64,000 nucleotides of DNA from Candidatus Magasanikiibacteriota bacterium (GTDB taxonomy: Bacteria; Patescibacteriota; Patescibacteriia; Magasanikbacterales; UBA922). Position numbers and translations under genes: made by a program. The notes under the pieces are model-generated. The model made no database searches. It saw only the letters and a list, made by a program, of their open reading frames with translations, and was not told the origin of the DNA. Every line of letters begins with the position of its first letter. Position 1 is the stretch's first letter. This document shows positions 44,598 to 60,957 of the stretch, in pieces. The stretch is from assembly GCA_041665025.1 (NCBI GenBank), contig JBAYJP010000002.1, forward strand, positions 64,691 to 128,690. Direction: 5' to 3'.

Positions 44598-44655
44598 AGG
44601 TTAATTAGAACAATTAGTATAATTAGAATAATTTACGTAATTAGGTGAATTCAAA
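44598..44655. repeat. 'TTAGAATAATTAG' heptamer repeat arm (family 3, inverted)
   Basis: 'ttaggttaattagaacaattagtataattagaataatttacgtaattaggtgaattc'. Confidence 0.75.
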
Positions 44656-44662
44656 ATATTTT

Positions 44663-45082
44663 CTACGAACTCCACCCGCTTTGTAACTCTGTTGCATCCA
44701 TGAGATTCTCTAAGACAAAATTTGAAATTGCAAAAGCCATAAGTATAATGACTATACCAATAACGGCCGCAAAAATAATTTTGCGGGCTTCTCCAGCCTT
44801 TTCTTCATTTCCGCCGGCAGTCATCCAGAGGAAACCTGCATAAATAATAAGGACAGTAGCAATAATACCCAATAATCCAAGCGACGCATTGATAATTTTG
44901 GCAGTCAGAATGCGCGGATCGCGAGCACTAAGTCCTGTATCTGCAACACAACCAAGTCCCAATGGATCGGTAGGATCATCACACTCGTCTACCATCTGGG
45001 CAGAAACCAAAAGTGGGCTTTGCAAAAAACCTACAGCTAAAACAAAACAAAGGATAATGAAAGACAATACCTTTTTGGACAT
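44663..45082 (-). CDS. VirB2/TrbC-like 'T4SS-pilin' family protein (P7)
   Basis: Core 'IIYAGFLWMTAGGNEEKAGEARKIIFAAVIGIVIILMAFAISNFV'. Start trimmed to MSKKVLSF because the ORF-track N-terminus is translation of the family-3 repeat. Confidence 0.65.
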   Translation of the reverse strand: MSKKVLSFIILCFVLAVGFLQSPLLVSAQMVDECDDPTDPLGLGCVADTGLSARDPRILTAKIINASLGLLGIIATVLIIYAGFLWMTAGGNEEKAGEARKIIFAAVIGIVIILMAFAISNFVLENLMDATELQSGWSS

Positions 45083-45094
45083 ATGAAAATGAAT

Positions 45095-45200
45095 TATTCT
45101 AATTAACCTAATTGTTCTAATTATTCTAAACAATTTCTAATATGGTTTTTAATTTAGGGGTTTGTTTAGAATAATTAGTATAATTAGAATAATTTTTGTA
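45095..45200. repeat. family-3 heptamer inverted repeat pair
   Basis: 'aattattctaattaacctaattgttctaattattctaaa' ... 'tttagaataattagtataattagaataatt', a ~40-bp-arm hairpin with a 25-nt loop. Confidence 0.8.
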
Positions 45201-45259
45201 TGGATATTCAAAATCTGAGGGCAAGGAGCATTTTTTCCCCTTGCCCTCTATAATCCAGA

Positions 45260-45703
45260 TTATAAAGTATATGTTGTGTCACTAGTCGTACCCGTAGCTC
45301 TACCAAGCTGTATCAAAGCAAACCGAGCAATTGCCCATGCTGCCAAGATTACTGCCATACCAATAATTCCCGAGAAGATCCATTTGCGAGCTTCTCCCAC
45401 TTTTTCTTCATTTCCGCCAGCAGTCATCCATTTGAATCCGCCGATAAGGACAATAACAACTGCGATAATACCGAGCATGCTCAAAGCAATGTTGATAATT
45501 TTGGTCGCAGTAACACGTAAATCTGCCTTTCCTAAGGCAATCCCGGTGCTATCTGCATCTCCGTCTTGAATTACATCAATTCCAAATGGATCGTCTCCAC
45601 TAGCTGCTCCAACAAAAGATGGTGAAAGCACTAAACCAAACACTGCGATTGCAAGTATGGTTAAAACTGTTCTGTATTTTGTCAATTTGTACAATAAGTT
45701 CAT
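45260..45703 (-). CDS. VirB2/TrbC-like 'T4SS-pilin' family protein (P8)
   Basis: Core 'LIGGFKWMTAGGNEEKVGEARKWIFSGIIGMAVILAAWAIARF'. Start set at MNLLYKL, preceded by GGAGGTGA (one of the few SD-like sites). Confidence 0.65.
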   Translation of the reverse strand: MNLLYKLTKYRTVLTILAIAVFGLVLSPSFVGAASGDDPFGIDVIQDGDADSTGIALGKADLRVTATKIINIALSMLGIIAVVIVLIGGFKWMTAGGNEEKVGEARKWIFSGIIGMAVILAAWAIARFALIQLGRATGTTSDTTYTL

Positions 45704-45762
45704 GTGTCTCACCTCCCTTCTAAAAGAAGGATTATTTTTTATTAATCCAATAAATTTATAGT

Positions 45763-46728
45763 TTATTGACTCACAGCAGCGCCTCTTACTGTCTTTTCTG
45801 TTGTCCATTCACAAGTGTCAAATTCAGGAAATCCAGCCCGTGATTGTTCACATTCACCTTGCGTATTAAATTCAACACGCACTTCCCAATTTCCCCTCGA
45901 TTCATTTTGAAAACCACAATAACAATTTTTTATTTGTTCAACGCATTCTTCTCGTATTTCATATTCTGTTCCTGTACAAGGACCCCCACCACCTGGGATA
46001 CATTGATTGTCTATCAAACAAAACGTAGTTTGTTGGACAGGGGCTGTATACCCCACGCCAAGCCCTTTTAAAATTAAATCAATTATAGCATAACTGCTAA
46101 AAATAACAACAATTCCCAACACTGCCCAGGTGATTGCCATGGTGCCTTTTTTTATTTGTTCTGCATTGCCAGCAGAAGTAAGCCACATGAAACCTCCATA
46201 CACGACAACAAGCAGAGTGACAGCCCCCAAAATTCCCATTCCAACTCGTATGGCCCCGCCAAAAACTTCCAAAGCATTATTTGCGTTTACTGGATTTGTA
46301 AGAGACACACAACCAGGGGGAGTACATGGTCCGCCATATTGCTGTATAAGAGAATTTCTCAAAGATTCTGGATCAATCGGACTTCCCGCACTACCTCCAC
46401 CTCCAGCAGCAGCACCATCTCCAGCAGCAGCACCATCTCCAGCAGCAGCAGCACCATCTCCAGCAGCACCACCACCAACCTGTTCAATACAAAGTCCTTC
46501 TTTACATGCTGAACCAGCCACACATTCTATATCTCCTTCCTCTTCACCACAAGACCCGCCTTCAAAAATACATATGCTACCAGTGTCACCATCAACACAG
46601 CTAAAATTTGGTAATGTACAACTTTCATCACTAAGACAAGTCCTGTCTTCAGATCTCACAATTTCTCTATAACTAAAAATTGTTGCGACTGTCATTACTA
46701 TAATCGCTGTTTTCAAAAAAAATTTCAT
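45763..46728 (-). CDS. VirB2/TrbC-like 'T4SS-pilin' family protein with Cys-rich N-domain and Gly/Ala repeat (P9)
   Basis: Core 'VVYGGFMWLTSAGNAEQIKKGTMAITWAVLGIVVIFSSYAI'. N-terminal Cys-rich domain, 'GDGAAAAGDGAAAGDGAAAGGGGS' encoded by a 15-nt tandem DNA repeat, second Cys-rich module C-terminal. Confidence 0.65.
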   Translation of the reverse strand: MKFFLKTAIIVMTVATIFSYREIVRSEDRTCLSDESCTLPNFSCVDGDTGSICIFEGGSCGEEEGDIECVAGSACKEGLCIEQVGGGAAGDGAAAAGDGAAAGDGAAAGGGGSAGSPIDPESLRNSLIQQYGGPCTPPGCVSLTNPVNANNALEVFGGAIRVGMGILGAVTLLVVVYGGFMWLTSAGNAEQIKKGTMAITWAVLGIVVIFSSYAIIDLILKGLGVGYTAPVQQTTFCLIDNQCIPGGGGPCTGTEYEIREECVEQIKNCYCGFQNESRGNWEVRVEFNTQGECEQSRAGFPEFDTCEWTTEKTVRGAAVSQ

Positions 46729-46745
46729 AAGTTCATAAGCTATAA

Positions 46746-47963
46746 TTAAAATCTAAAATCAGATTTTACTTGCAACATCTTCAATAAGAAATCAACCAAA
46801 ATATACGCGCTAAACGTGACAACAAGACCCATAGTTGCCGACGTAAGCATGCTTTTGCCTTTTTCAACTTTTTCGCTATTGCCAAAAGACAACACCCACG
46901 TAAATCCTCCATAGACAAACATAACAAATGCAAATCCTGCAGCACCTCCCATAAATATTTTCCCCGCGTTTATCATAAGTTGAAGCAGATCATTAATATT
47001 TCTGCACTGTCCACTATATGCACAATCCGGCAAGAGTCCTGATGCGTCTTCGGGGACGGGATATTGTTGAGAAATAGATTGTTCAACTGCAACGCTGTCA
47101 ATAGGTTTGCATTCTCCTCCCTCTTTTCCAGTAACAGTGCTCCAAGCACAGGTGTCTTTTAATTTTTCACGTTCACAAATGCTTTTGGGAAATTTTGTAC
47201 ACAAACTACCATCTCTAGCAGACACACAACTTGATTCATTCCAAATACACAATACATTGGAATCACAGTCAGTTTTTTCAAAACCAGAACAAGCTAATTT
47301 GGATATGGTGATTGAAAAATCTTTCAAGCCATATTTTGCTGGTGTACCACTCGTATATGCAAGAAAAGAAAATTTTACTTCTTTTGGCAACGAAACATCA
47401 GATATACTTCCCAAATATTCAGTTGGATTAAAACTAAAAACTATATTCGCAGGATTCCCGCTTGCCTGCAAAGGTCCAGTATAACCCGATATTTTATCAC
47501 AATTGAGACACAAAAGTGTAAAATTATATGAACCACTTTTTGTAGCTTTCACCATAACATTATTTAACATCTCACCAGGCGTGACTTCAGTTGACCCTAC
47601 ATATGTTATTATGGAACTATCTGGAGCTCCACTTAAATTCATGACTGACTGGATACATCTGGGTTCCTGGGTACATCCCACTTCTCTGCCCTTCAAAGGT
47701 GTGTTACATATTCGACCTGGATTTGGAGTATTCGGATCAAGAACCTCGCAAGGTCCTGTATGCATATAATCGGCCCTACACGAACCTTCAGGTTTAGGGC
47801 TACAAGAGACTGCTGTTTCCCCTAAATATCCCGCACAACATCTGCCACTCAAGTCTGCTGCAAAAATAAAATTTGGATTTAACAAATAAATGGATAAACC
47901 CAAAGTAAGAAAAAAAAATATCACTTTTTTTATTTTTGATGCACTTACAAGTAATTTTTTCAT
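46746..47963 (-). CDS. VirB2/TrbC-like 'T4SS-pilin' family protein with large Cys-rich ectodomain (P10)
   Basis: 405 aa: signal peptide, ~330-aa Cys-rich domain, then core 'FVYGGFTWVLSFGNSEKVEKGKSMLTSATMGLVVTFSAYILVDFLLK'. Confidence 0.6.
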   Translation of the reverse strand: MKKLLVSASKIKKVIFFFLTLGLSIYLLNPNFIFAADLSGRCCAGYLGETAVSCSPKPEGSCRADYMHTGPCEVLDPNTPNPGRICNTPLKGREVGCTQEPRCIQSVMNLSGAPDSSIITYVGSTEVTPGEMLNNVMVKATKSGSYNFTLLCLNCDKISGYTGPLQASGNPANIVFSFNPTEYLGSISDVSLPKEVKFSFLAYTSGTPAKYGLKDFSITISKLACSGFEKTDCDSNVLCIWNESSCVSARDGSLCTKFPKSICEREKLKDTCAWSTVTGKEGGECKPIDSVAVEQSISQQYPVPEDASGLLPDCAYSGQCRNINDLLQLMINAGKIFMGGAAGFAFVMFVYGGFTWVLSFGNSEKVEKGKSMLTSATMGLVVTFSAYILVDFLLKMLQVKSDFRF

Positions 47964-47972
47964 ATACCTTTC

Positions 47973-49346
47973 TTACATCGTCTGCTGTACGCGTGCAGCA
48001 GTATTAATAATTAATTTTCTATCTCTGTCAATTGGTTCTTCTCTATCTCCATACGGCTTTAGAAGTTCACTTACCAAAGTCTTCATCGCATCACGCGCAG
48101 TATCTATATCACGGCCCGTATACCAATTTTCTGCATACAACGCTTGGGTCGCAAACGGTTCCATATTTTCATCTTTTTGCTGTTCAGTAATTTGAGTACG
48201 CAAAGGACTCGGCCTAAACATGGCATCGGTATATATCTTCACATTTGCAGGTGATGTAATATAACGCACAAAATCCCACGCTTCGTTTTGGTGCTTTGAC
48301 TTGAGAGCGACTGATTCAACCCAATAATTTGCAACATTGCGCGGGCTGTCTGGATTGAGCTGAAACACCGGCAATATTTTCATATTCATTTGTGGAGCGC
48401 GCGCTTTTATGCGCGGATAGTCGTATGCGTATCCAAAATAAAATACGACTTTACCCCGTACAAATGCGTCTAATGCATTTTCCATTTTTTCATTCCACGA
48501 ATAAACTTTTTTGGTAGGACGGGCAAAGTCAGTATAAAAATCCAACGCGCGAAATGTCGGATGCGTCCTATCTGAAAGGTCAACACCATCGGCAAAACGA
48601 ACATATCCACCCTGTGACATGTCTACTCCGCTTTGAAGCATAAATAATGATAGAATATCGAAACTAGCATCAATATTATTGCCTGTTCCGAGCGCTGCGC
48701 CGGACTGCACAATATCTCCACGTGAATTAAATTTGGTTGTTTTTTCTATAATTTTTACAAATTCATCCCATGTCTTGGGCGCTTCAGAAATTCCTGCGCG
48801 ATCAAGCAAATCTTGATTATAATACACACCCAAAGAATCCATGGCTATAGGCAAGCCATATATTTTGTTATCAAAAACGACATCCTGATACACGGTCTTC
48901 ACATATCCATCTTTTACTTCTTTTACGGAAGGCAGTGGTATGGTATCAATAATAACTTCTTTTTCATCAGTATATTTATTTGTGACAACTATCCGTGCCA
49001 TTTTCACTGATGCGGGCATAGGAGCCAAACGATTTTTTTGTTTCTTAAGCCACTGTACATGCATCGACACGATATCTGGCCCTACGTCATCAGCAAGAGC
49101 AGTCGTAAATAATCGATCAAATTCTTCATAACGCACTTGGCGTATATTAATTTTTACATAGGGACGAGCTTTTTCATATTCAGCAGCCATTTTTTGCAAT
49201 TGGGATACGTCATCAAAGATAGTCCAATATTCAAGCTGGACGCGTTTGAGCGCGGCCTGTTGTTCGGCATTGAGACCCTTACAACCCAAGCCAGTCGTAA
49301 GAAGCAAAATTGTGAGTATAAAAATAGATATTAGCCTCTTGTACAT
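47973..49346 (-). CDS. extracellular solute-binding lipoprotein (ABC transporter SBP, family 1, sugar-type)
   Basis: Lipobox 'LLLTTGLGCKG' and SBP_bac_1-like fold. Inserted inside the pilin array. Confidence 0.65.
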   Translation of the reverse strand: MYKRLISIFILTILLLTTGLGCKGLNAEQQAALKRVQLEYWTIFDDVSQLQKMAAEYEKARPYVKINIRQVRYEEFDRLFTTALADDVGPDIVSMHVQWLKKQKNRLAPMPASVKMARIVVTNKYTDEKEVIIDTIPLPSVKEVKDGYVKTVYQDVVFDNKIYGLPIAMDSLGVYYNQDLLDRAGISEAPKTWDEFVKIIEKTTKFNSRGDIVQSGAALGTGNNIDASFDILSLFMLQSGVDMSQGGYVRFADGVDLSDRTHPTFRALDFYTDFARPTKKVYSWNEKMENALDAFVRGKVVFYFGYAYDYPRIKARAPQMNMKILPVFQLNPDSPRNVANYWVESVALKSKHQNEAWDFVRYITSPANVKIYTDAMFRPSPLRTQITEQQKDENMEPFATQALYAENWYTGRDIDTARDAMKTLVSELLKPYGDREEPIDRDRKLIINTAARVQQTM

Positions 49347-49349
49347 AAT

Positions 49350-49470
49350 TTATTTTAAAAACAATTATTCTAATTAACCTAATTGTTCTAATTATTCTAA
49401 AAATAACTGGCTCTACTTCCCTATTAACTACCTTTTTTTAGATTCAACAATATTTTAGAATAATTAGTAC
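49350..49470. repeat. family-3 heptamer inverted repeat pair
   Basis: 'aattattctaattaacctaattgttctaattattctaaaaa ... ttttagaataattagtacaattaaaataatt'. Confidence 0.8.
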
Positions 49471-49552
49471 AATTAAAATAATTTGGGAACAACAAACTGA
49501 AAACAAATTTCATTATAAAATACACCTTAATTCTTTGCGGTTGATATCCGTA

Positions 49553-50410
49553 CTATCTAAAAGCTTCAAACACAATATCTACCACTGCATAACTTGCAAA
49601 TATAAGCACAATGCCAAGCGAGGACCAAATAAATATTTGCATTGCCTTAGCACCTTTTTCTGCGTTACCACCCGCAGTCATCCAGAGCACACCGCCATAT
49701 ACAATCATAGCTAGTGCAATAGATCCCATGATGCCCATTGCGGCTTTGATAACTCTGCCTATGAGTTCTGGCAAATAAATATCTCCTAATGTATTGAGAA
49801 CCGAGACATCGGGGATAATAAGACCAGCTTCCTCCTCACCCTGTGTAGGTGTTGTAGGTACGGCTGTCGAAGAATCATATTTATCTGCTTTAGGCATGCA
49901 TGACACAAGCAAATTTACTACGGGCGAACCGACAAAACTCTGCCTAATATTAAAATTACAATCTGACAGTACGCGCGCCTCTGAAAAAGCTGGTGGTAAA
50001 GTTATATCACTTGATATTTTTCCATTTAGTATCTGAGATAAGGTAAATTGGTAACGAACCTGAACTGAAGTCGCAGCATCTACTCTGAATCCTTCTCCAT
50101 CTACCTGTAATCGACATGCACAAGAATTATCCGAATCACTACCTATAATCGCAAGGCCATCTGAAACAGTTACCATATTAGGAGTCTGGCCAACTTTGAG
50201 ACAAATACCCTGATGACACCTTCTCCCTCCCGGACATGGAGCGCCCGGATCACACAGTGCTGTTTCACAGTTCATGTCGTCTGTGCATATTTCGTCACTG
50301 CCGCAGTCATTATCGTTTATACAATCTGCCTTGGCCTCTGCAGGAAAAAAATTAAGCACGGTCTGAAACATGATAAGAAGTACCACAAAAATATATTTCT
50401 TATACCTCAT
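49553..50410 (-). CDS. VirB2/TrbC-like 'T4SS-pilin' family protein with Cys-rich N-domain (P11)
   Basis: Signal peptide, Cys-rich N-domain (CINDNDCGSDEICTDDMNCETALC..), core 'MIVYGGVLWMTAGGNAEKGAKAMQIFIWSSLGIVLIFASYAVVDIV'. Confidence 0.65.
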   Translation of the reverse strand: MRYKKYIFVVLLIMFQTVLNFFPAEAKADCINDNDCGSDEICTDDMNCETALCDPGAPCPGGRRCHQGICLKVGQTPNMVTVSDGLAIIGSDSDNSCACRLQVDGEGFRVDAATSVQVRYQFTLSQILNGKISSDITLPPAFSEARVLSDCNFNIRQSFVGSPVVNLLVSCMPKADKYDSSTAVPTTPTQGEEEAGLIIPDVSVLNTLGDIYLPELIGRVIKAAMGIMGSIALAMIVYGGVLWMTAGGNAEKGAKAMQIFIWSSLGIVLIFASYAVVDIVFEAFR

Positions 50411-51281: not shown

Positions 51282-51410
51282 ATATTCTATGATTTTAATA
51301 CATCAGCAGTATAACAAATATTTTATGTTTATGCTACATTTTTGGGGCGATAGGTTAAGAAACCAGACTCCGGAAAATAATCTCCGGTTTCCTAGCCTAT
51401 CGCCCATCAC

Positions 51411-52793
51411 TCACTCAATTTCTTCCCAAGAAATTAACTCATACATCGTCCCTACGGGGAAACCAGGTGGTGGATAATATTTCAAATTGCCATCATACAC
51501 ATGATTGGTGTCGTGAAAACCAGAAATCACATTACCCCACCCGTTCACGTATTTCCATCCTCCTCCTTCATACGAAATTTGGGACCCAAAAAAAGTTAGA
51601 GAATCTTTGAGCCCATTGAGGTTTTCATCTGGATCATAGTACGGAGTATATATTGAACCAAACTGAGATAAGGCCGCGGCATTCACTTCCATTGTCCGCG
51701 AAGCCTCGTAAGGAACCACGATATCTCCCTGGGCCATGAGCCCGACAACGTCATCGCCGCCTTTTTCCGCATACGTTAAATTATTATTTATATACAATGT
51801 TTTGTATGGTTCTTGTACAGGAAACTTTCCCACGCCAATAGTGACACGCCCATTTACCGTTCCTTGAACCCATACATTATCTTCAAAAAACATGGCTCCA
51901 TTTGAGGGGATAGCCAGTCTCTCAAAAAATTGGCGATTCCCTACATCAAAACAATACGTATTTCCATCCCAATACCATCCTCCCCATCTCCTGCGCCATC
52001 TACCCTCGCCCTTATAGCAATCGCGGCTTGTCACTTTGTATAGATCAAATTGATTGCCGTCAAAAATTATTTGCCAACCCTCTGTACCAGATGATCCGCG
52101 ACGGATTCCTCCATTGTTTGATGCAGTGCGTATGTCATCGAGATCTCCAGTAACTGAATAAAAGTCAATGATAGGAACAGGAAAATCCCAAAAGGTCTTT
52201 GGTCCTCCACCACCCTGGATATCTCCATGTGCCCTCACCCACGAATCTGTTGTCCCATCAAAACGAATATTTCCATTTGAATGAACGATGCCATGAACCA
52301 CGGTCGTAAAACTAAAACTCATATCTGCATTTTCCAAAAATGCATAATCAGTCATAGCAGGAAATCCCACTCGTACCTGCAGTGTCCGTGAGGCATTGGG
52401 TTCCTGTACAGTCCAACCAGTTGAACGCACTGTGACAACAGAACTCCCGGCAAGTGGTTCATCAATATCTAAAGAAAAATATCCTACCAGATTTCCGTCT
52501 TTGTCATGATATTCATGTACATAAGGGCCAGGCTGGCCAGTGCCATCCGTATATTCATCATTATCATGCGCCAAATGCCAACGATAATAATTCACACCGG
52601 CTTCGGCAATATGCAAAGCCATATCACGCCGATAAAGTTTCGTTGATGCGCGATGTTCAAATAATGCATAGCCAGACACGCCCAAAATAATAATCGTGAA
52701 TGCGATAGAACCGAAAATCATCGCGAAGATGAGCATTGAACCACGGGCGTATTTTCTGTGTAGTTTTGCAGTAATATACTTATTTTTTTTCAT
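51411..52793 (-). CDS. type IV pilus minor-pilin/PilX-like protein (large pseudopilin)
   Basis: Basic leader then hydrophobic helix 'GSMLIFAMIFGSIAFTIIILGVSGYAL...ALHIAEAGVNY', typical of PilX N-terminus. Large beta-rich ectodomain. Start trimmed to MKKNKY. Confidence 0.45.
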   Translation of the reverse strand: MKKNKYITAKLHRKYARGSMLIFAMIFGSIAFTIIILGVSGYALFEHRASTKLYRRDMALHIAEAGVNYYRWHLAHDNDEYTDGTGQPGPYVHEYHDKDGNLVGYFSLDIDEPLAGSSVVTVRSTGWTVQEPNASRTLQVRVGFPAMTDYAFLENADMSFSFTTVVHGIVHSNGNIRFDGTTDSWVRAHGDIQGGGGPKTFWDFPVPIIDFYSVTGDLDDIRTASNNGGIRRGSSGTEGWQIIFDGNQFDLYKVTSRDCYKGEGRWRRRWGGWYWDGNTYCFDVGNRQFFERLAIPSNGAMFFEDNVWVQGTVNGRVTIGVGKFPVQEPYKTLYINNNLTYAEKGGDDVVGLMAQGDIVVPYEASRTMEVNAAALSQFGSIYTPYYDPDENLNGLKDSLTFFGSQISYEGGGWKYVNGWGNVISGFHDTNHVYDGNLKYYPPPGFPVGTMYELISWEEIE

Positions 52794-52837
52794 AACAATA
52801 TTTATTGGTATTGGGTTAGGAAACCAGAAACCTTGCG

Positions 52838-53455
52838 TCAATTTGTCTTTAGATTGCGTACCTGGACCATACTCTCCACATGCAGAGGAACTGGAGTCGC
52901 AGTTGGATCTTTTTCGAGCTCAAGCTGAACTTTGATAAGATGGACATGGGTTACATCAACCGGTTGAGGCAAAGAATTCTCAATCCCTGTGTATGATTCA
53001 TTAAAGTAGGTGAAAATAGGTATTCCTTGCACTTGATTTTTTACATTGTGAGCCAGCTCAATTACTGTCTCGACTCCAGAATATGACAATGGACTACCTG
53101 ATGGCTTTATGACTCCTTGTTTTAGAGTCGTTCCATCAAGCCAAAAGCGTACACGTTCGCGAAAACTATCTTCATCAATATTTGCATAAAAAATTAACTC
53201 ATTCGCACCAGCTATCACAATAGGATATGAACCTATACTCGATTCTTCTGCTTTGCGTGCCTCATTTACCACCTGAAACATCACTTTTCTTCCTTCACTC
53301 TGAGTAGTGAGCTGTTCCCACATGACATCATTTGATCGTAAACTGGTAATCAAAAGCCATACAGCGCCAGTCGTAATAATCGAAAAAATACCAATCACTA
53401 CAGCGAGTTCAAGCAGTGTTGTACCCTGATTATCATGTTTTACTTTAGATAACAT
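52838..53455 (-). CDS. type IV pilin-like protein (class III signal peptide)
   Basis: Prepilin motif 'NQG|TTLLELAVVIGIFSII' with Glu at +5; 4-nt overlap with the upstream gene. Confidence 0.65.
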   Translation of the reverse strand: MLSKVKHDNQGTTLLELAVVIGIFSIITTGAVWLLITSLRSNDVMWEQLTTQSEGRKVMFQVVNEARKAEESSIGSYPIVIAGANELIFYANIDEDSFRERVRFWLDGTTLKQGVIKPSGSPLSYSGVETVIELAHNVKNQVQGIPIFTYFNESYTGIENSLPQPVDVTHVHLIKVQLELEKDPTATPVPLHVESMVQVRNLKTN

Positions 53456-53456
53456 A

Positions 53457-53486
53457 CTGATACGTGATATGTGATACGTGTTATAT
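53457..53486. repeat. ACGTG-family heptamer array (R7, half site)
   Basis: 'ctgatacgtgatatgtgatacgtgttatat' between two prepilin-like genes. Confidence 0.75.
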
Positions 53487-55262
53487 CGCCACCAAATCTA
53501 CAATAACAACTTGATCTCCATCCACAGGCACAGTGGTCGTAAATGTTTGATACCCTTCGTGTGTAATTTCTACCGTATACTCTCCCTCTAGAAGATTTCC
53601 AAAATATGACTGTCCGGGAGGAGTACATTCATTTGTATATACAATAGAAACATCGGACAATGTTGGTGTCACGGTCGCATCATCTGTGTGCAAATATACT
53701 TTATAACGCACATATTGATTCCCTTCGTGTATCTCGTGAATCGTTTGGCTATCTTGCGTATAAAATGTGGATGCTGTTCCGTCTGGACCCACATACTCCC
53801 ATGTTTCAGATGTGCTCGATGCACTACTCGCTATTTGAAATCTAAGTCCATCTACACCTACTTCTGGTGTCTGACCCAATGGATTCCATTCCAATGTTAC
53901 GTAATGCGCCTGCGTACCCACATCAATGACAGAAGATTCAAGAACCCCATTACTTATATAGTTTTCTCCAATTTTTCTCAATACTACATCTCCTGCAGTT
54001 TCACTCACATCCACATTATTGTCATCTGACCAATATCTGGTATTGTCCAAAAAATCGAGCTGTCCTGCACCGCCAGACCAATCGGTTTGGGCAATGCTCC
54101 CTACTCCTGTTGATTTGGTGACATCATATACATCAAAACTCGCACGCACCTGTGCATTGGCAACAGGTAAACCATCATCATTGACCATTACCAAAAGAGA
54201 ACGCAAGGTATTTGGTGCAATGACTAGCTGAACAGGTTGAGTAACTCCGGGATTAAGTGCAAATGGAACATCGGGAATAGTGCCAACGAGATCATATCCA
54301 GACACAGAAAATCCATAACTATCCCATTGTAATGACGAAAATGAATAAGCGCCCGATCCATTTGTTGTATACGTGCCATCCACTTGATAAATATCTGGAT
54401 TTGTCCCCATGAGATGAGTCCCACGCACAGCAAATGACACAGATGATATGGGCTGACACTGAGTATTTACCGCCTCAATATCTATGTGCGATATATAATC
54501 AATAGAAAAACTAATTTCAGTGACATCTTGAGCTTGTACTGAAGCGGGAGGTTTTGTAGGGTGAGGATTGATATCCGATGGCAAGGTAGTTCCATCGATA
54601 GTAAAACCCGGTTTGGTGACGGTAATGGTATATGCATCTGTCCCTTCTGCCACATCAACAATACGCAACATTCCGTCGTTATCTGTAACATCTTCAAAAT
54701 CATATGTGGGAGTTGTAGATGTAGAAACAATATGCACAGTGGCTCCGACAACTGGCTGAGCTTGTGCGTCAAATACCTCTATGTATAATGCACCATGCGT
54801 TGGGTCGCCTTCCAACAATTTTGGCGCGACATATGTCTGTACGGTGAGCGGTTGATTTTGTCCGCATTGTGTACATACAATAGCAATATCAACTAGTTTA
54901 TAATCCGCAGGAGCCGTGTCATTTGGCGTACCGCCAATAACTCCGTCAAAGGGATCATCAATATTGCGAATAGTACGTGTTATCAAAAAATCAATACCAT
55001 TACGTGTCATCGTCACATTTCTTTGTAATAAACCGGATGGACTTCCATTTACAATACCCACATCATAAAAAGATAGGTTACGAACAAGCTCAATTTGTTC
55101 ATTAAGCACAGCTGTCTCAATAATTCTCACGCGTGACTGATATATAATTTTGAAAATAAGCTGTATGCCGCCATACACCCCCATCGCAAACATTACAAAA
55201 ATAGCAATGGCGATGACGGCCTCTAATAATGAGAAAGCTTTTTTGTTTAAACAAATGGACAT
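53481..55262 (-). CDS. large type IV pilin-like protein (prepilin N-terminus plus ~550-aa beta-rich ectodomain)
   Basis: 'KKA|FSLLEAVIAIAIFVMF' class-III signal (Glu+5), then long Thr/Val/Gly-rich Ig/carboxypeptidase-regulatory-like repeats. Start trimmed to MSICLNKK. Confidence 0.6.
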   Translation of the reverse strand: MSICLNKKAFSLLEAVIAIAIFVMFAMGVYGGIQLIFKIIYQSRVRIIETAVLNEQIELVRNLSFYDVGIVNGSPSGLLQRNVTMTRNGIDFLITRTIRNIDDPFDGVIGGTPNDTAPADYKLVDIAIVCTQCGQNQPLTVQTYVAPKLLEGDPTHGALYIEVFDAQAQPVVGATVHIVSTSTTPTYDFEDVTDNDGMLRIVDVAEGTDAYTITVTKPGFTIDGTTLPSDINPHPTKPPASVQAQDVTEISFSIDYISHIDIEAVNTQCQPISSVSFAVRGTHLMGTNPDIYQVDGTYTTNGSGAYSFSSLQWDSYGFSVSGYDLVGTIPDVPFALNPGVTQPVQLVIAPNTLRSLLVMVNDDGLPVANAQVRASFDVYDVTKSTGVGSIAQTDWSGGAGQLDFLDNTRYWSDDNNVDVSETAGDVVLRKIGENYISNGVLESSVIDVGTQAHYVTLEWNPLGQTPEVGVDGLRFQIASSASSTSETWEYVGPDGTASTFYTQDSQTIHEIHEGNQYVRYKVYLHTDDATVTPTLSDVSIVYTNECTPPGQSYFGNLLEGEYTVEITHEGYQTFTTTVPVDGDQVVIVDLVAI

Positions 55263-55297
55263 GTGACAGGCTATTTTATTGCACCTACTAATGTAAC

Positions 55298-55372
55298 TAA
55301 ATTCACCTAATAAAATTCCAAATAACAAAAATTTTAATTTGACTTTTTGATTTTTTATTAGGTGAATTCTAC
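55298..55372. repeat. 16-bp perfect inverted repeat hairpin ('aattcacctaataaaa'/'ttttattaggtgaatt')
   Basis: Arms enclose a ~40-nt loop. Shares the 'taggtgaattc' word with the family-3 element at 44640. Confidence 0.7.
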
Positions 55373-55385: not shown

Positions 55386-55859
55386 TCATTCACCAAGCTC
55401 GGTAATTATTCTCTCTACCAATTCCTTAGATTTTGCTCTCAATTCTGCATCGCTCAACCCCGCTCCTCCACCTTTCCGTATTTCTTCTACCTGTGTATTA
55501 ATTAATTCTTCTTTCATTTTCAAAAGTTCATCTTTGTGTACAATAATTTTTTTCTTCAATGTTTCAATTTGTTTTTTATCTTGCTCGACCGAAGATACTG
55601 ATCCGTCTGTTTGTAGTTGGAGCTGTTGTCGAAGAGCCTGAATCGCAACCAAAACCTGTTGCATGTGCAACATAATATTTTGAACTTGCTGTTTTCCGCT
55701 TTTGACTTCTTTTACCAAAAAATCAGCTCGCTCCATGGTCGCGGCGGCCTGCGCTTCCGGATCCATTTCTTTTTCTTTTGATTCGCGAACTTCTACCGCG
55801 CGCTCCTGAGCTTCACGTGAACGGCGACGGATTTCAGATTGTTCAACTTCGAGAGACAT
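55386..55859 (-). CDS. hypothetical coiled-coil protein
   Basis: About 157 aa charged helical protein. Start trimmed to MSLEVEQ because the ORF-track prefix MLRDMCYVF is repeat read-through. Confidence 0.4.
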   Translation of the reverse strand: MSLEVEQSEIRRRSREAQERAVEVRESKEKEMDPEAQAAATMERADFLVKEVKSGKQQVQNIMLHMQQVLVAIQALRQQLQLQTDGSVSSVEQDKKQIETLKKKIIVHKDELLKMKEELINTQVEEIRKGGGAGLSDAELRAKSKELVERIITELGE

Positions 55860-55860: not shown

Positions 55861-55912
55861 AACACGTAACACATATCACGTAACACATATCAATTGTTTT
55901 GTGTTACGTATG
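55861..55912. repeat. ACGTG-family heptamer palindrome (R8)
   Basis: 'aacacgtaacacatatcacgtaacacatatcaattgttttgtgttacgtatg'. Confidence 0.8.
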
Positions 55913-55941: not shown

Positions 55942-56709
55942 TTAATCTACTACTTCTAATTTCTTCGCCCCAACCCATGACAAATAATACGCCTGCCGCA
56001 TTGCGTCGGCAATTGCCTTGCTTTCAATAAGTACAGAATTGTTTTCCACAAAATTCATAAAGACAACTTTGTTGGCATATATGTTGACCTCTATGCCAGG
56101 CCAAAATATATTTCGCGGGACCACAACAGTTTCAGATAATTCTTGTTCATCATGTGGCTTGTTTCGCGTATGCCACACTGATCCTTCGCCGGCAATTCTT
56201 TTTGCATGCATATTCAACTTCACACGATTATTTATATAGTCCTTATCGAGTCCATATTTATCAAAATCAAAATACAAATCTGTATTCCACATCAATATCT
56301 CATCTGGCTTAACTTCGAGTGTATCATCAAACGCTTTTCGTATTGCGCCTTTCCCTTCGTAAAAATATATTTTTGGTTTCGTTTCACTCGTATTGTACAT
56401 GGCTTCAAAACGGGGTAATTCTTTTTCAACCTGCGTCTTCAAATCAGTTATTATGGTCAAAAGTTTTTCTGGAGGGTCAGCGACGAATTTATTTTTCCCT
56501 TGTTCCGTGGTCTTTCCCATCACACCGCGATCAATAAGCGCATTGAGTATGAAATAAACAGTGGTTCTCGGCAATCCTGCTTCATTTGCAAGTTTACTTG
56601 CTGTTGACGGCCCTGATTCTAGAGCAGACAAATACACCTTTGCCTCATTTTTTGAAAATCCTATTTGGGTCAAAAGACGGTCTAACTGCATATTTTTAGA
56701 GTTATACAT
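55942..56709 (-). CDS. TrmB-family transcriptional regulator
   Basis: N-terminal winged-HTH 'LTQIGFSKNEAKVYLSALESGPSTASKLANEAGLPRTTVYFILNALIDRGVM' typical of TrmB, plus C-terminal effector domain. Confidence 0.6.
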   Translation of the reverse strand: MYNSKNMQLDRLLTQIGFSKNEAKVYLSALESGPSTASKLANEAGLPRTTVYFILNALIDRGVMGKTTEQGKNKFVADPPEKLLTIITDLKTQVEKELPRFEAMYNTSETKPKIYFYEGKGAIRKAFDDTLEVKPDEILMWNTDLYFDFDKYGLDKDYINNRVKLNMHAKRIAGEGSVWHTRNKPHDEQELSETVVVPRNIFWPGIEVNIYANKVVFMNFVENNSVLIESKAIADAMRQAYYLSWVGAKKLEVVD

Positions 56710-57363: not shown

Positions 57364-57393
57364 TATTACGTGATATGTGTTTCGTGCTACGTG
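57364..57393. repeat. ACGTG-family heptamer array (R9)
   Basis: 'tattacgtgatatgtgtttcgtgctacgtg' immediately downstream of rpsR. Confidence 0.75.
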
Positions 57394-59099: not shown

Positions 59100-59561
59100 C
59101 TATAGCTCAACTGGGCTGCTACCTGTCGCTTGACCCAGAGAACGCAACAAAAAAATCACCATGCTATTTGATAGGAGTATTATAATAAGTCCGATTATTG
59201 CATTGAAGAGAACACGTCGAGCTTTTTTCGTGCGTTCTTCATCTCCTCCCGAAGTCATCCAGAGCAGACCACTATATATTATAAGTAAAACAAGCAAAAT
59301 ACCCAAAAATCCGAGAGCAATATTAATGAGGCGTATGACGATAGTACGCAAGTCAGCTGAACCCAAATTAATAAACTCATCAATACTCCTAATACCAAGC
59401 AAATCATCCAAACCATACGCATCTGACGCTTCAACGGTAGTCGTAGTAACCTGAGCCTCCGTGGTCGAAGTAGCTACGTCTGGTGGCGCCTGTGCAAGTA
59501 CAAAAGTTGCATACCCAGAGAAAAAGGATAGCGTAGTTAGAATATATGCAAAAATTTTCAT
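59100..59561 (-). CDS. VirB2/TrbC-like 'T4SS-pilin' family protein (lone paralog P12)
   Basis: Core 'IIYSGLLWMTSGGDEERTKKARRVLFNAIIGLIIILLSNSMVIFLL'. Confidence 0.65.
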   Translation of the reverse strand: MKIFAYILTTLSFFSGYATFVLAQAPPDVATSTTEAQVTTTTVEASDAYGLDDLLGIRSIDEFINLGSADLRTIVIRLINIALGFLGILLVLLIIYSGLLWMTSGGDEERTKKARRVLFNAIIGLIIILLSNSMVIFLLRSLGQATGSSPVEL

Positions 59562-59640
59562 AGTATATAATTTTAGTATTATATCATCTATAGTAGCACG
59601 TAAACAAAAATATCAACAATTTACTGTTGATATTAAAGCT

Positions 59641-59718
59641 TGGTCGGGGTGATAGGACTTGAACCTACGGCCTCATCGTCCCAAACGACGCGCTCTAGCC
59701 AACTGAGCTACACCCCGC
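59641..59718 (-). tRNA. tRNA-Pro (anticodon TGG), CCA encoded
   Basis: Minus-strand cloverleaf GCGGGGT-GT-AGCTC..GAGC-CGTCG-TTTGGGA-CGATG-AGGCC-GTAGG-TTCAAGT-CCTAT-CACCCCG-A-CCA. Confidence 0.85.
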
Positions 59719-60387
59719 TTTTAAACCATCTATAAAACCAATTATTGTATGAAATAAATCAACACGATAGACACGGACATGAACAGTTCCATTCGTTAAG
59801 TACCTCTTCTGCTTCCCTCTGCTGGCGCTACTTCTCACTATTGAAGTTGCAATAAATTGAGTAGCAGGAACACCTATTATTTTCTGCCAATATTCAAGTG
59901 CCTTTTTCCTTTGTTTTTGTGAATGTACTGCCAATTGTATTCTAAAATCTTTTTCTTTTACATGGCAAATCTCCCTAAAAAATCTCATCATCATCCGTAT
60001 CATGTCTGGATCTGAATTGGTAAAATCAACACATTTCCAAAGACTTCCTTCAGCTCCTTTTTTGTATCCTTCTCCCCAATACAAAGCAATCCCCATCATA
60101 AACAAATCCCTCTGAGAAATCTTTCCAATCTGTTTTGCAAAATATTCTCTGATTTGTTGAGCTTTTTGTTTTGCGTGTGTGGTCTGATCTTTATTCCTTC
60201 GAATAAGGGCCCGTACACTCTTTTGCCTTCCCTTTTTTTGTATTTTTTCTTGAGCAGAATGAGATAAAACAATGTCTGAGAGCCAAAAAGATAGTGTACT
60301 TTTGGGAACAGACGTCGCACGAGAAATTTCAGTATAGCTTCTGCCTCTCTTTCTGAGTTGTATTGCAATTGATTTATCTGTTCTCAT
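59695..60387 (-). CDS. HTH-domain protein with LAGLIDADG-like motifs (possible free-standing homing-endonuclease-like gene)
   Basis: N-terminal HTH 'SYTEISRATSVPKSTLSFWL'; 'LFMMGIALYWGEGYK' and C-terminal 'IIGFIDGLKAG' resemble LAGLIDADG blocks. Lies between tRNA-Phe(intron) and tRNA-Pro; the 3' end overlaps tRNA-Pro by ~24 nt, so the stop or extent is uncertain. Confidence 0.3.
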   Translation of the reverse strand: MRTDKSIAIQLRKRGRSYTEISRATSVPKSTLSFWLSDIVLSHSAQEKIQKKGRQKSVRALIRRNKDQTTHAKQKAQQIREYFAKQIGKISQRDLFMMGIALYWGEGYKKGAEGSLWKCVDFTNSDPDMIRMMMRFFREICHVKEKDFRIQLAVHSQKQRKKALEYWQKIIGVPATQFIATSIVRSSASRGKQKRYLTNGTVHVRVYRVDLFHTIIGFIDGLKAGCSSVG

Positions 60388-60436
60388 ATAATTGAACCTA
60401 CGGCACGTTGACGAAATTAGTATACCGTAGGTTCAA
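60381..60436. repeat. 14-bp perfect-stem hairpin
   Basis: 'aattgaacctacgg cacgttgacgaaattagtata ccgtaggttcaatt' between the tRNA-Phe 3' exon and the downstream ORF. Confidence 0.7.
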
Positions 60437-60448
60437 TTATACTGCAAG

Positions 60449-60744
60449 TGCCGAGGGCCAGGATTGAACTGGCGACACAAGGATTTTCCTTTTGACTTAT
60501 ATTTCTATAAGGATCGGACTATATCTTCATCCCGATTAAATCGGGAGTTGGGCGCTTATGCATGATTATTGTTGATACTCACACGCTAGTCTCTACACCT
60601 TTTCTGGGAGTCTAATCGCCAGAACTTGGCTCGGGATTGCCTTTTTAATAAGGTTTCCCCGAATTCACCCAAATTTCTCATTCTAAATTACTTTAGAAGG
60701 GACCGAAAACCAGTCCTCTGCTCTACCACTGAGCTACCTCGGCA
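60449..60744 (-). tRNA. tRNA-Phe (anticodon GAA) interrupted by a ~220-nt intron in the anticodon loop
   Basis: Exon 1 (60744->60711) GCCGAGG-TA-GCTCAGTGGTAGAGC-A-GAGGA-CTG. Exon 2 (60487->60449) AAAA-TCCTT-GTGTC-GCCAG-TTCAATC-CTGGC-CCTCGGC-A. Spliced product matches bacterial tRNA-Phe nearly base for base. Confidence 0.75.
60488..60710 (-). ncRNA. group I-like self-splicing intron in tRNA-Phe
   Basis: 5' exon end GGACU can pair with intron 'GGUCC' (P1, U.G at splice site). Internal 'AGACUA'/'GAGACUAGC' and downstream 'UAGUCC' resemble P7 strands. Intron ends in G before exon 2. No ORF inside. Confidence 0.5.
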
Positions 60745-60780
60745 TTTAACGTGGTAAAACAAATTCCTTTAGTCAAGGAA

Positions 60781-60856
60781 TGGTGGACCCGAGGAGATTC
60801 GAACTCCTGACCTCATGCGTGCAAAGCAAGCGCTCTACCAACTAAGCTACGGGCCC
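60781..60856 (-). tRNA. tRNA-Ala (anticodon TGC), CCA encoded
   Basis: GGGCCCG-TA-GCTT..AGAGC-G-CTTGC-TTTGCAC-GCATG-AGGTC-AGGAG-TTCGAAT-CTCCT-CGGGTCC-A-CCA with G3.U70. Confidence 0.85.
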
Positions 60857-60919
60857 TTGTATTTAAAAACGAAAAAAGTATACCAATCTAACTAAAAAAA
60901 GTCAAGGAGTATTATATGA

Positions 60920-60952
60920 CAAAAATCGCCTTTTCAGCGATTTTTGTTTTTC
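60920..60952. terminator. bidirectional intrinsic terminator
   Basis: 'gacAAAAATCGCcttttcaGCGATTTTTgtttt' just downstream of the CPA2 antiporter gene. Confidence 0.6.
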
Positions 60953-60957
60953 CGCTT

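What the first reader, a model, noticed from the sequence alone, without database searches (positions are those of the whole stretch)
51411..55328. Class-III prepilin (type IV pilus-like) triad immediately after the VirB2-like array, including a 594-aa pilin with a giant beta-rich ectodomain
Three consecutive minus-strand genes carry prepilin-type N-termini: 'NQG|TTLLE', 'KKA|FSLLEAVIAIAIF' and a PilX-like 'GSMLIFAMIFGS..ALHIAEAGV'. The largest (53481-55262) has a ~550-aa Thr/Val/Gly-rich repetitive ectodomain. Two unrelated pilin systems (T4P-type and VirB2-type) lie side by side, with an ACGTG repeat (R7) between two of the T4P genes and another (R8) plus a TrmB regulator just beyond. Together they suggest a co-regulated surface-appendage locus. 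No PilB/PilC/PilT ATPase or platform genes are in the window.
Basis: partly seen in the sequence, partly recalled or inferred. Interest (0 to 1): 0.6.

Follow-up and report, generated by a model that had tools for sequence, protein, structure and literature searches.

The report
Type IV pilus minor-pilin operon
Three adjacent genes in this ultra-small (Candidatus Magasanikbacteria) genome encode the accessory subunits that most likely start and cap its type IV pilus. This is an expected kind of gene set, and its one notable feature is a cap protein predicted to look like a DNA-binding pilus tip protein from Thermus.

Summary
Genes A (53481-55262), B (52838-53455) and C (51411-52793), all on the minus strand, each have one N-terminal hydrophobic segment. 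A and B carry canonical class-III signals (G/A|xxxxE). C keeps the Gly but never has Glu5, as in GspK/PilX-type tip pilins.

The window comes from a 440-kb Candidatus Magasanikbacteria contig. It holds no pilus machinery, but pilB-pilC-pilM-pilN lies about 30 kb beyond its end on the same contig. In more distant Patescibacteria the triad sits inside the machinery operon as pilB-pilC-A-B-C-pilM-pilN.

- **Gene A:** a modular pilin, with a small pilin module followed by about 440 aa of tandem Ig-like domains. This architecture is already catalogued.
- **Gene C:** predicted with high confidence (pLDDT 91) as a pilin helix and sheet plus a beta-solenoid. Its best solved match is the Thermus competence pilin ComZ (E 3e-10).

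Best reading: a GspI/J/K-like minor-pilin set that primes and caps the pilus. The ligand (DNA or host glycan) is unresolved.

The neighbouring VirB2-like array is conserved in this lineage (46 of 56 loci) but absent from the other lineages. The "ACGTG" repeats are a genome-wide intergenic motif, so co-regulation is not supported. The prepilin peptidase and the major pilin were not located. Verdict: a new member of a known kind, of modest interest.

The parts
53481..55262 (-). Gene A: a 593-aa modular type IV (pre)pilin. Leader MSICLNKKA, then FSLLE plus a hydrophobic helix. A small pilin module (helix 9-61 and a 4-stranded sheet to about residue 145) is followed by about 440 aa of tandem Ig-like/transthyretin-like beta-sandwich domains, ending in a PEGA-like domain.
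   Evidence: Pfam N_methyl, two CarboxypepD_reg stretches and PEGA. NCBI names the identical protein 'prepilin-type N-terminal cleavage/methylation domain-containing'. AF2 model pLDDT 85.8. Foldseek matches adhesin and pilin stalks built of Ig-like domains: 6fwv at 2e-11, PitA at 2.5e-9, SpaA. Family logo G|F(S/T)LxE with Glu5 in 50 of 50.
52838..53455 (-). Gene B: a 205-aa type IV (pre)pilin. Leader MLSKVKHDNQG, then TTLLE plus a hydrophobic helix. It occupies the GspJ/PilW-like position between A and C.
   Evidence: N_methyl at 19.5 bits in this protein and a hit in 6 of 6 orthologues (best 5.7e-9). Weak N-terminal GspJ/ComGE matches. Glu5 in 6 of 6. Detected adjacent to C in 60 of 76 loci.
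51411..52793 (-). Gene C: a 460-aa PilX/GspK-type pilin without Glu5. Leader ends ...YARG, then SMLIF. A long N-terminal helix (3-76) and a pilin beta-sheet (91-143) are followed by a beta-solenoid (about 150-430) and a highly conserved C-terminal strand (452-459). Predicted to be ComZ-like, and the candidate tip cap.
   Evidence: AF2 pLDDT 91.3, pTM 0.82. Foldseek top hits are ComZ 6qvi at E 3e-10 and probability 1.0, followed by ice-binding-protein solenoids, the same solenoid class that the ComZ paper reports for ComZ. PilX_N hits in 13 of 61 family members. Gly at -1 in 55 of 61 and never Glu5. 2045 cluster representatives at E<=1e-3. At least 592 species-level genomes carry a relative.
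51345..51405 (-). A long inverted repeat (GGGCGATAGG...CCTATCGCCC) with an inner GC hairpin followed by a T-run, directly after the stop codon of gene C. It is the likely operon terminator and lies before the GalU-like gene.
   Evidence: Sequence read. Terminator-like site at 51387-51370.
53456..53480 (-). The 25-nt A-B spacer, carrying tandem heptads (CACGTAT CACATAT CACGTAT).
   Evidence: The motif occurs 34 times against 2.3 expected, mostly at unrelated operons. It is largely confined to this organism's contigs.
55386..55859 (-). A 157-aa coiled-coil ORF with no signal or TM segment, directly upstream of gene A. It is a conserved neighbour in part of the lineage. Whether it belongs to the unit is uncertain.
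   Evidence: Called as a 157-aa gene in the public record. No Pfam hit. A homologue lies upstream of the triad in 21 of 55 loci. About 47% identity between genomes.

Best explanation
A, B and C are the minor pilins of this Candidatus Magasanikbacteria type IV pilus.

Inferred mechanism:
1. All three insert into the membrane through their N-terminal helix. A and B, and probably C, are trimmed after the conserved Gly/Ala by a prepilin peptidase.
2. They assemble on the PilC/PilM/PilN platform into a GspI-GspJ-GspK-like complex on which PilB then polymerises the major pilin. The complex is therefore pushed out first and ends up at the pilus tip.
3. C has no Glu5 and has a bulky beta-solenoid built into its pilin fold, so it is the cap, as proposed for GspK and Thermus ComZ.
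4. A adds a roughly 440-aa stalk of Ig-like, carbohydrate-binding-like domains that projects from the tip.
5. The tip then binds an external ligand, either DNA (as for ComZ) or host-surface glycan (as for Saccharibacteria PilX2 and the tapirins).

Shown here: the class-III signals, the predicted folds, and the genomic linkage to pilB, pilC, pilM and pilN.

Inferred: processing, heterotrimer formation, tip location and the ligand.
For: Signals:
- Canonical class-III signals in A and B, with Glu5 invariant across each family. C keeps Gly at -1 but never has Glu5.

Folds:
- The AF2 models show an N-terminal helix plus a beta-sheet pilin module in both A and C.
- The best solved match for C is the tip competence pilin ComZ, at E 3e-10 over about 570 alignment columns. 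ComZ is itself GspK-like with an inserted ice-binding-protein-type solenoid (PMC6561018).

Genomic linkage:
- The gene order A-B-C matches the I-J-K / PilV-W-X order. This is established knowledge of gsp and fimU-pilVWX operons.
- In the distant relatives L084-L086, L088 and L090 the triad lies between pilC and pilM/pilN (L089 has pilB-pilC-A-B-C, and L076 and L087 are partial versions); abutting or overlapping stop and start codons were read in L084-L086 and L090.
- In Magasanikbacteria, pilN-pilM-pilC-pilB lies divergently 2-5 kb upstream, across S6-SSB-S18.
- This genome has pilB-pilC-pilM-pilN on the same contig.

Conservation and precedent:
- C is as conserved as PilC (about 60% against 62% identity) and more conserved than PilM, PilN or ribosomal protein S6. 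This fits a fixed structural or ligand role.
- Saccharibacteria have analogous pilV/pilW/pilX sets, in which the large PilX lacks a PilD signal and PilX2 mediates host binding (PMC11623550).
- N_methyl+PF13620 pilins are a catalogued modular-pilin architecture, and a Magasanikbacteria protein is among the representatives shown (PMC8179133).
Against: - No prepilin peptidase (Peptidase_A24) and no major pilin were found in the roughly 105 kb of this genome I could see, or next to the triad in any of 93 loci.
- The triad is not next to the machinery in this genome. It lies about 30 kb away, across about 26 kb of probably inserted DNA.
- The window's own C protein does not reach any Pfam or NCBIfam model.
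- The fold of B was not modelled.
- There is no expression or protein-level evidence.
Confidence: 0.78

Rival explanations
1. The triad and the neighbouring VirB2-like (PF18895) array form one co-regulated surface-appendage locus. On this reading the pilin-like proteins work with the T4SS-type pilins rather than, or in addition to, the type IV pilus.
For: The order triad, GalU-like gene, PF18895, SBP, PF18895 array is conserved in 46 of 56 loci with enough downstream sequence, and in every Magasanikbacteria-type locus examined. All genes are on the same strand. VirB2 arrays are known to matter for the epibiotic life of Patescibacteria (bioRxiv 10.1101/2025.01.22.634366).
Against: In other Patescibacteria lineages the same triad sits in pilB-pilC-A-B-C-pilM-pilN with no VirB2-like gene within 10 kb. 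A terminator-like hairpin follows C. The array has its own 9-nt repeat element (13 copies against 0.35 expected), and none of those copies is near the triad. The heptad ACGTG motif at the triad is genome-wide. Synteny within a single lineage may simply be inherited and does not count as independent events.
Confidence: 0.1
2. The three proteins build only a short pseudopilus of the Com or T2SS type, which acts as a piston for DNA uptake or secretion through the wall. They are not the tip of a long adhesive pilus.
For: A and B have weak N-terminal matches to ComGE/ComGF/GspJ. The fold of C resembles the competence pilin ComZ and GspK-like pseudopilins. No major pilin was seen near the triad in 93 loci. 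C is conserved to a degree that fits a universal ligand such as DNA.
Against: PilM and PilN accompany the triad, which marks T4aP-type machinery. Long type IV pili have been imaged on Patescibacteria and genetically tied to pilin genes in Saccharibacteria, where T4P-2 was not needed for competence (PMC11623550). A 440-aa Ig-like stalk on A suits reach and adhesion. The two models also differ mainly in filament length, which sequence cannot tell.
Confidence: 0.12
3. The N-termini are plain signal-anchors. On this reading A, B and C are membrane-tethered surface proteins (an adhesin, a small partner and a beta-helix protein) that are never processed or polymerised.
For: The prepilin peptidase was not located. 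C lacks Glu5 and reaches no pilin model on its own. Saccharibacteria PilX proteins are also not predicted to be PilD substrates.
Against: The G|F(S/T)LxE motif has an invariant Glu5 across 50 A-family and 6 B-family sequences. That degree of conservation has no purpose in a mere anchor. The triad is embedded in the pilB-pilC...pilM-pilN operon. The predicted folds are pilin folds.
Confidence: 0.04

Closest known systems
ComZ, competence-associated tip pilin of Thermus thermophilus (PDB 6QVI; Salleh et al. 2019, PMC6561018)
   Same: Gene C is predicted to share the architecture: an N-terminal pilin helix, a GspK-like pilin sheet and a large ice-binding-protein-type beta-solenoid. ComZ is the top Foldseek hit at E 3e-10, and ice-binding proteins including 4NU2 come next, as the ComZ paper reports for ComZ itself. 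Like ComZ, C is encoded next to smaller partner pilins and is too bulky for the filament body.
   Different: There is no detectable sequence similarity. C is shorter (460 aa against about 550 aa). The host has no outer membrane or secretin. DNA binding and the two lysines implicated in ComZ were not examined. The point at which the solenoid is inserted into the pilin fold was not verified.
GspI-GspJ-GspK / PilV-PilW-PilX core minor pilin complexes of T2SS and T4aP
   Same: Three consecutive pilin genes are present. The last protein lacks Glu5 and carries an extra domain inside the pilin fold. The genes are tied to the assembly machinery. There are weak N-terminal GspJ matches (A and B), and one GspK match and PilX_N matches in the C family.
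   Different: No GspH/FimU-like fourth member and no PilY1 were seen. The first member (A) carries a 440-aa C-terminal stalk. Conservation is far higher than I would expect for minor pilins: C is as conserved as PilC. Complex formation was not tested.
Saccharibacteria (TM7x) pilV/pilW/pilX minor pilin sets (PMC11623550)
   Same: Both are from the same superphylum. Both are small pilin sets in which the largest member has an accessory domain and a non-canonical signal and is proposed to be the tip protein. PilX2 is needed for host binding.
   Different: The TM7x accessory domains are a jelly roll and a beta-propeller, not a beta-solenoid. Orthology to A, B or C was not tested.
Modular type IV pilins (Raynaud et al. 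2021, PMC8179133)
   Same: Gene A has the N_methyl + PF13620 (CarboxypepD_reg) architecture that the paper lists among widespread modular-pilin types, and a Candidatus Magasanikbacteria protein is among the representatives shown.
   Different: None of these Patescibacteria pilins has been studied experimentally. In relatives, A carries a variable number of domains (444 to about 1320 aa).
Tapirins of Caldicellulosiruptor (bioRxiv 10.1101/359786)
   Same: They are beta-helix proteins encoded beside a type IV pilus locus, and they bind polysaccharide. There are weak NCBIfam tapirin hits in 6 of 61 C-family members, and weak Foldseek hits to tapirin structures.
   Different: The matches are weak (best E 0.002 by sequence, 0.35 by Foldseek). 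As far as I recall, tapirins are not pilins.

Membership tests
Type IV pilins / class-III signal peptide proteins (PF07963, TIGR02532) | A short polar leader ending in Gly (or Ala), followed by about 20 hydrophobic residues with Glu at +5 | tested here: met
   A has KKA|FSLLE and B has NQG|TTLLE. Glu5 is present in 50 of 50 (A family) and 6 of 6 (B family) sequences. C has Gly at -1 in 55 of 61 but never Glu5, which is the known exception for GspK/PilX-type tip subunits. The pattern hits only A and B in about 105 kb of this genome.
Type IV pilins / class-III signal peptide proteins (PF07963, TIGR02532) | The curated model is matched above its threshold | tested here: inconclusive
   A: PF07963 at 22.1 bits against a cut-off of 21.2 (met). 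B: 19.5 bits, under the cut-off, although 6 of 6 orthologues hit with a best E of 5.7e-9. C: no hit.
Type IV pilins / class-III signal peptide proteins (PF07963, TIGR02532) | Pilin fold: a long N-terminal alpha-helix packed on an antiparallel beta-sheet | tested here: met
   AF2 models give, for A, helix 9-61 plus four strands (78-145), and for C, helix 3-76 plus four strands (91-143). These are predictions, not solved structures. B was not modelled.
Type IV pilins / class-III signal peptide proteins (PF07963, TIGR02532) | Genetic association with the PilB/PilC/PilM/PilN machinery | tested here: met
   The order pilB-pilC-A-B-C followed by pilM and/or pilN is seen in L084-L086, L088 and L090; L089 has pilB-pilC-A-B-C, and L076 and L087 are partial versions. 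The machinery lies divergently upstream in Magasanikbacteria. In this genome it is on the same contig about 30 kb away.
Type IV pilins / class-III signal peptide proteins (PF07963, TIGR02532) | Cleavage and N-methylation by a prepilin peptidase (Peptidase_A24) | not testable with these tools
   No A24-like GxGD(V/I)K motif was found in any fetched locus. The rest of the genome could not be read.
ComZ-like pilins | A GspK-like pilin domain combined with an ice-binding-protein-type triangular beta-solenoid | tested here: met
   Foldseek against 6qvi chains A, B and C gives E 3e-10 to 1e-9, probability 1.0, over about 570 columns. Ice-binding proteins (7bwx, 4nu2 and others) follow. The global TM-score is only 0.28-0.30, so this is similarity of architecture rather than a rigid superposition.
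ComZ-like pilins | [quoted passage not shown] | tested here: inconclusive
ComZ-like pilins | Sequence homology to ComZ | tested here: not met
   A profile of 61 C-family sequences finds no PDB chain at E<=1.
ComZ-like pilins | Binds dsDNA and a neighbouring small pilin (PilA2) | not testable with these tools
   This is biochemistry only. B is the adjacent candidate partner.
PilX_N (PF14341) | A match to the PilX N-terminal model | tested here: inconclusive
   13 of 61 family members match (best E 2.4e-4). The window protein does not, even at E<=1. NCBI names some orthologues 'pilus assembly PilX N-terminal domain-containing protein'.
GspI/J/K-type core minor pilin complex | Three co-encoded pilins that form a heterotrimer, with the Glu5-less subunit on top | not tested
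   Gene order and the missing Glu5 in C fit.
Modular pilins (N_methyl plus a non-pilus domain) | An N-terminal pilin motif followed by an independently recognised domain | tested here: met
   A has N_methyl, two PF13620 stretches and PEGA. PF13620 is listed among the common modular-pilin modules in PMC8179133.

The most novel reading that the evidence does not exclude
The ComZ-like beta-solenoid pilin C may be the conserved tip receptor of the Patescibacteria type IV pilus. On this reading it captures extracellular DNA, or another invariant polymer, for uptake by organisms that cannot make their own nucleotides. That would explain three observations: C evolves as slowly as the PilC platform protein, C is fixed between pilC and pilM in several lineages, and only the stalk pilin A varies in size. 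The lineage-wide linkage to the VirB2-like array would then mark a single host-contact and uptake region of the chromosome.
Probability: 0.2. Interest if true: 0.65.

Novelty: new member of a known kind. Interest (0 to 1): 0.4.

Why it matters
Type IV pili are thought to be central to how Patescibacteria attach to hosts and possibly take up DNA. Outside one Saccharibacteria model, however, their tip components are essentially uncharacterised.

This analysis defines a conserved three-gene minor-pilin module, present in at least 592 species-level genomes. It contains a predicted ComZ-like cap and a stalk pilin of variable length. That gives concrete candidates for binding assays and for genetics in tractable relatives.

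For this particular window the result is mostly confirmatory. The genes are what they look like, public annotation already labels A as a prepilin, and the proposed regulatory link to the VirB2-like array does not hold up.

Tried and rejected
- **Profile searches against PDB sequences:** nothing for C. For A and B, only the N-terminal helix matched (Geopilin, PilA).
- **Pfam and NCBIfam on the window's own C protein:** no hit. Family-wide scans gave only weak PilX_N, Bactofilin (beta-helix), tapirin and GspK signals.
- **Looking for pilB next to the triad in the closest relatives (P0012, P0006, P0010, P0035):** not present there. Those loci have dnaA, trigger factor or TrmB upstream.
- **Walking off both window ends by 10 kb:** no pilus genes. 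PilB was finally found by searching with a relative's PilB and recognising the 440,391-bp contig length.
- **Prepilin peptidase:** a motif search (GxGD[VI]K) over all 93 loci and the window found nothing credible.
- **Major pilin:** the class-III pattern found no further prepilin in about 105 kb of this genome or beside the triad in the eight relatives' loci scanned.
- **The listing of cluster members for taxonomic breadth:** nearly no names were returned.
- **Diversity-generating retroelement near the Avd-like gene at 44203-44592:** the repeat search showed only paralogous VirB2-like domains and short spacer repeats. I did not pursue this further.
- **Shared regulation by ACGTG repeats:** rejected.

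Full report
**What is in the sequence**

Three consecutive minus-strand ORFs occupy 51411-55262.

- Gene A (53481-55262, 593 aa) begins MSICLNKKA|FSLLEAVIAIAIF.
- Gene B (52838-53455, 205 aa) begins MLSKVKHDNQG|TTLLELAVVIGIF.
- Gene C is called in the public record from the ATG at 52793 (460 aa). It begins MKKNKYITAKLHRKYARG|SMLIFAMIFG and contains HIAEAG.

Each protein has exactly one strongly hydrophobic segment, at the N-terminus.

Pfam finds the N-terminal methylation motif in A (22.1 bits, cut-off 21.2) and just below threshold in B (19.5 bits). In A it also finds two CarboxypepD_reg stretches (E 1e-12) and a C-terminal PEGA domain. NCBIfam gives only weak N-terminal ComGE/GspJ/ComGF matches. 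C matches nothing on its own.

A strict class-III pattern, run on every possible start in six frames over the window and three further pieces of the same contig (about 105 kb), hits only A and B. The signals are therefore not chance matches.

**Source and families**

The window is part of a 440,391-bp contig of a Candidatus Magasanikbacteria MAG.

All three proteins belong to large, well-conserved families.
- C has 1418 relatives in the 90% clusters and 2045 cluster representatives at 50% identity (928 at E<=1e-10).
- C relatives occur in at least 592 species-representative genomes.
- A has 733 relatives, several already named 'prepilin-type N-terminal cleavage/methylation domain-containing protein'.

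Family logos:
- A: (K/R)(K/R)G|F(S/T)LxE, with Glu5 in 50 of 50 sequences.
- B: G|(F/I/T)(T/S)LLE, with Glu5 in 6 of 6.
- C: (R/K)G|(S/T)xLx(F/Y), with Gly at -1 in 55 of 61 and never Glu5.

Loss of Glu5 is the established hallmark of the GspK-type subunit that caps T2SS pseudopili.

**Machinery**

The window contains no PilB, PilC, PilM or PilN. This rests on Pfam scans of all but one ORF of 300 aa or more and on phmmer with this genome's own Pil proteins over all window ORFs.

In relatives, pilN-pilM-pilC-pilB lies divergently just upstream, across the S6-SSB-S18 genes. A search with one such PilB returned a 576-aa PilB on a contig of exactly 440,391 bp (P0333). Its locus carries pilB-pilC-pilM-pilN plus two small bitopic proteins.

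From the record coordinates, pilB lies about 30 kb beyond the window's high end. pilB and S6 are 26 kb apart here, against 229-351 bp in L022 and L031. The extra DNA carries a Peptidase_M78 gene, a large serine recombinase, a 1163-aa LTD/PKD protein, MgtC and a Na+/H+ exchanger. It is probably one or more integrated elements.

The prepilin peptidase and the major pilin were not found in what I could read.

**Synteny across 80 species-level genomes**

I built HMMs from my own alignments and searched the ORFs of loci L014-L093.

- A lies upstream of C in 66 of 67 loci with enough flank.
- B was detected adjacent to C in 60 of 76. This is probably an undercount, because the HMM was built from only 6 sequences.
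- A GalU-like gene follows within 1.5 kb in 53 of 69.
- A PF18895 array of at least 3 genes, with an embedded solute-binding protein, follows in 46 of 56.

The decisive point concerns the most distant relatives, where C is 37-43% identical. There the triad lies inside the pilus operon as pilB-pilC-A-B-C-pilM-pilN, with abutting or overlapping stops and starts. In L086, for example, the genes run 3560-5290, 5290-6522, 6522-9338, 9338-9964, 9968-11356, 11313-12416 and 12421-12960.

One genome (L077) has two tandem triads. B and C keep their size (about 200 and about 460 aa). A ranges from 444 to about 1320 aa.

**Structures**

C was modelled from 61 sequences, with pLDDT 91.3 and pTM 0.82. The model has:
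- an N-terminal helix (3-76);
- a four-stranded sheet (91-143);
- a long run of short parallel strands, interrupted by a long beta-hairpin (248-294);
- a final strand (452-459).

Foldseek against the PDB puts the three chains of Thermus thermophilus ComZ (6qvi) first, at E 3e-10 to 1e-9, probability 1.0, over about 570 columns. Ice-binding-protein solenoids follow, including 4nu2, and then weak tapirin hits.

The ComZ paper describes a GspK-like pilin domain with an ice-binding-protein-like solenoid inserted before the last strand. It reports binding to the neighbouring pilin PilA2 and to dsDNA, and proposes a tip location (PMC6561018).

The resemblance is architectural only. The global TM-score is 0.28-0.30, there is no sequence similarity, and I could not check the insertion topology.

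Family-wide scans add weak signals: PilX_N in 13 of 61, Bactofilin-type beta-helix in 18 of 61, tapirin in 6 of 61 and GspK in 1 of 61.

A was modelled with pLDDT 85.8. It has a small pilin module followed by tandem beta-sandwich domains. Its best matches are Ig-like stalks of Gram-positive pilins and adhesins: TIE 6fwv at 2e-11, PitA at 2.5e-9, and SpaA. N_methyl plus PF13620 is already listed among the widespread modular-pilin architectures, and a Magasanikbacteria protein is among the representatives shown (PMC8179133).

**Rates of change**

I compared this genome with 12 Magasanikbacteria-type genomes.

| Protein | Approximate identity |
|---|---|
| SSB | 76% |
| PilB | 67% |
| PilC | 62% |
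| C | 60% |
| S6 | 51% |
| PilM | 50% |
| A | 50% |
| B | 50% |
| PilN | 31% |

The most conserved part of C is its last 28 residues. Such slow change in an exposed pilin argues for tight structural constraints, an invariant ligand, or both.

**Interpretation**

The best-supported reading is a minor-pilin set that primes pilus assembly and stays at the tip.
- C is the Glu5-less cap.
- B is a small partner.
- A is a stalk-bearing modular pilin.

The ligand is open. ComZ points to DNA. Tapirins (bioRxiv 10.1101/359786), the PF13620 domains of A, and Saccharibacteria PilX2 (PMC11623550) point to host-surface glycans.

Patescibacteria lack an outer-membrane secretin. This is established knowledge. 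The size limit discussed for ComZ therefore does not apply to them.

**The neighbouring array and the repeats**

The window holds 12 PF18895 genes, at 40585-50410 and at 59100-59561. Such arrays are already described in Patescibacteria (bioRxiv 10.1101/2025.01.22.634366). Their adjacency to the triad is conserved in this lineage but absent from those where the triad sits in the pil operon.

The 'ACGTG' repeats are copies of a heptad motif, GTG(T/A)TACGTG. It occurs 34 times in the window against 2.3 expected, mostly between ABC-transporter genes and near an integrase. It is nearly confined to this organism's contigs.

The array has a different 9-nt repeat, TTCTAATTR, with 13 copies against 0.35 expected. 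None of those copies is near the triad. A terminator-like hairpin follows gene C.

I see no evidence for co-regulation of the two systems.

**Verdict**

The regulatory speculation is not supported. The locus is a new member of a known kind. Its most useful new point is the predicted ComZ-like cap, conserved across many Patescibacteria.

Noticed in passing
window 109-170, 1752-1808, 3414-3456, 5057-5124, 6191-6271, 37035-37105, 53471-53500, 55863-55910, 57377-57393, 62827-62850: A heptad-phased motif, GTG(T/A)TACGTG, occurs 34 times against 2.3 expected. It often appears as 2-4 tandem copies and as inverted pairs flanking a 20-40 nt spacer, and it lies almost only in intergenic spacers. It is largely confined to this organism's contigs and a few relatives. 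It could be a lineage-specific REP-like element or a regulator site.
   Followed up: partly
window 44155-44189, 44603-44628, 45097-45131, 45173-45189, 49368-49402, 49462-49478: A 9-nt-period repeat, TTCTAATTR (3-4 copies per site), has 13 matches against 0.35 expected. It is found only in spacers upstream of genes of the VirB2-like array and its embedded SBP. Two sites are 92% identical over 50 nt. It is a candidate array-specific promoter or operator.
   Followed up: partly
window 47973-49346 (-): An orphan solute-binding lipoprotein (SBP_bac_1/8, with an LGC lipobox) sits with no adjacent permease or ATPase. It occupies a conserved position inside the PF18895 array, downstream of the triad in 46 of 56 related loci.
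   Followed up: partly
window 59100-64000 and beyond (L009, L013): About 26 kb separates pilB from the S6 gene here, against 229-351 bp in relatives. The extra DNA holds a PF18895 gene, a 230-aa HTH protein, a Na+/H+ exchanger, MgtC/DUF4010, a 1163-aa LTD/PKD protein, a large serine recombinase, a Peptidase_M78 gene and TrmB. It is probably one or more integrated mobile elements.
   Followed up: partly
window 44203-44592 (-); also L012 9568-9954 and the contig of P0012: A 23S_rRNA_IVP / bAvd-like four-helix-bundle gene sits inside the VirB2-like array. In relatives, copies of the same family turn up between B and C or just after C, which suggests a small mobile or accessory gene. No reverse transcriptase or template/variable repeat pair was seen nearby.
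   Followed up: partly
window 126-5056 (+) and L010 9213-14095: Six or more tandem paralogous ABC2_membrane_6 permease genes (each about 263 aa) are followed by one ABC ATPase gene. The heptad motif lies in most of the spacers.
   Followed up: no
L077 1271-11374: One Parcubacteria-labelled genome carries two complete triads in tandem (A B C A B C). The first A protein is about 1320 aa.
   Followed up: no
window 55942-56709 (-); L013 3618-4349 and 16707-17468: Three TrmB-family regulator genes lie near pilus genes in this genome: one upstream of the triad and two flanking the pilBCMN operon. TrmB upstream of the triad recurs in only a few relatives (L014, L041, L050, L067).
   Followed up: no
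window 46384-46486: An in-frame, low-complexity tandem repeat (GCAGCAGCACCATCTCCA-like units) lies inside the 321-aa PF18895 gene at 45763-46728.
   Followed up: no
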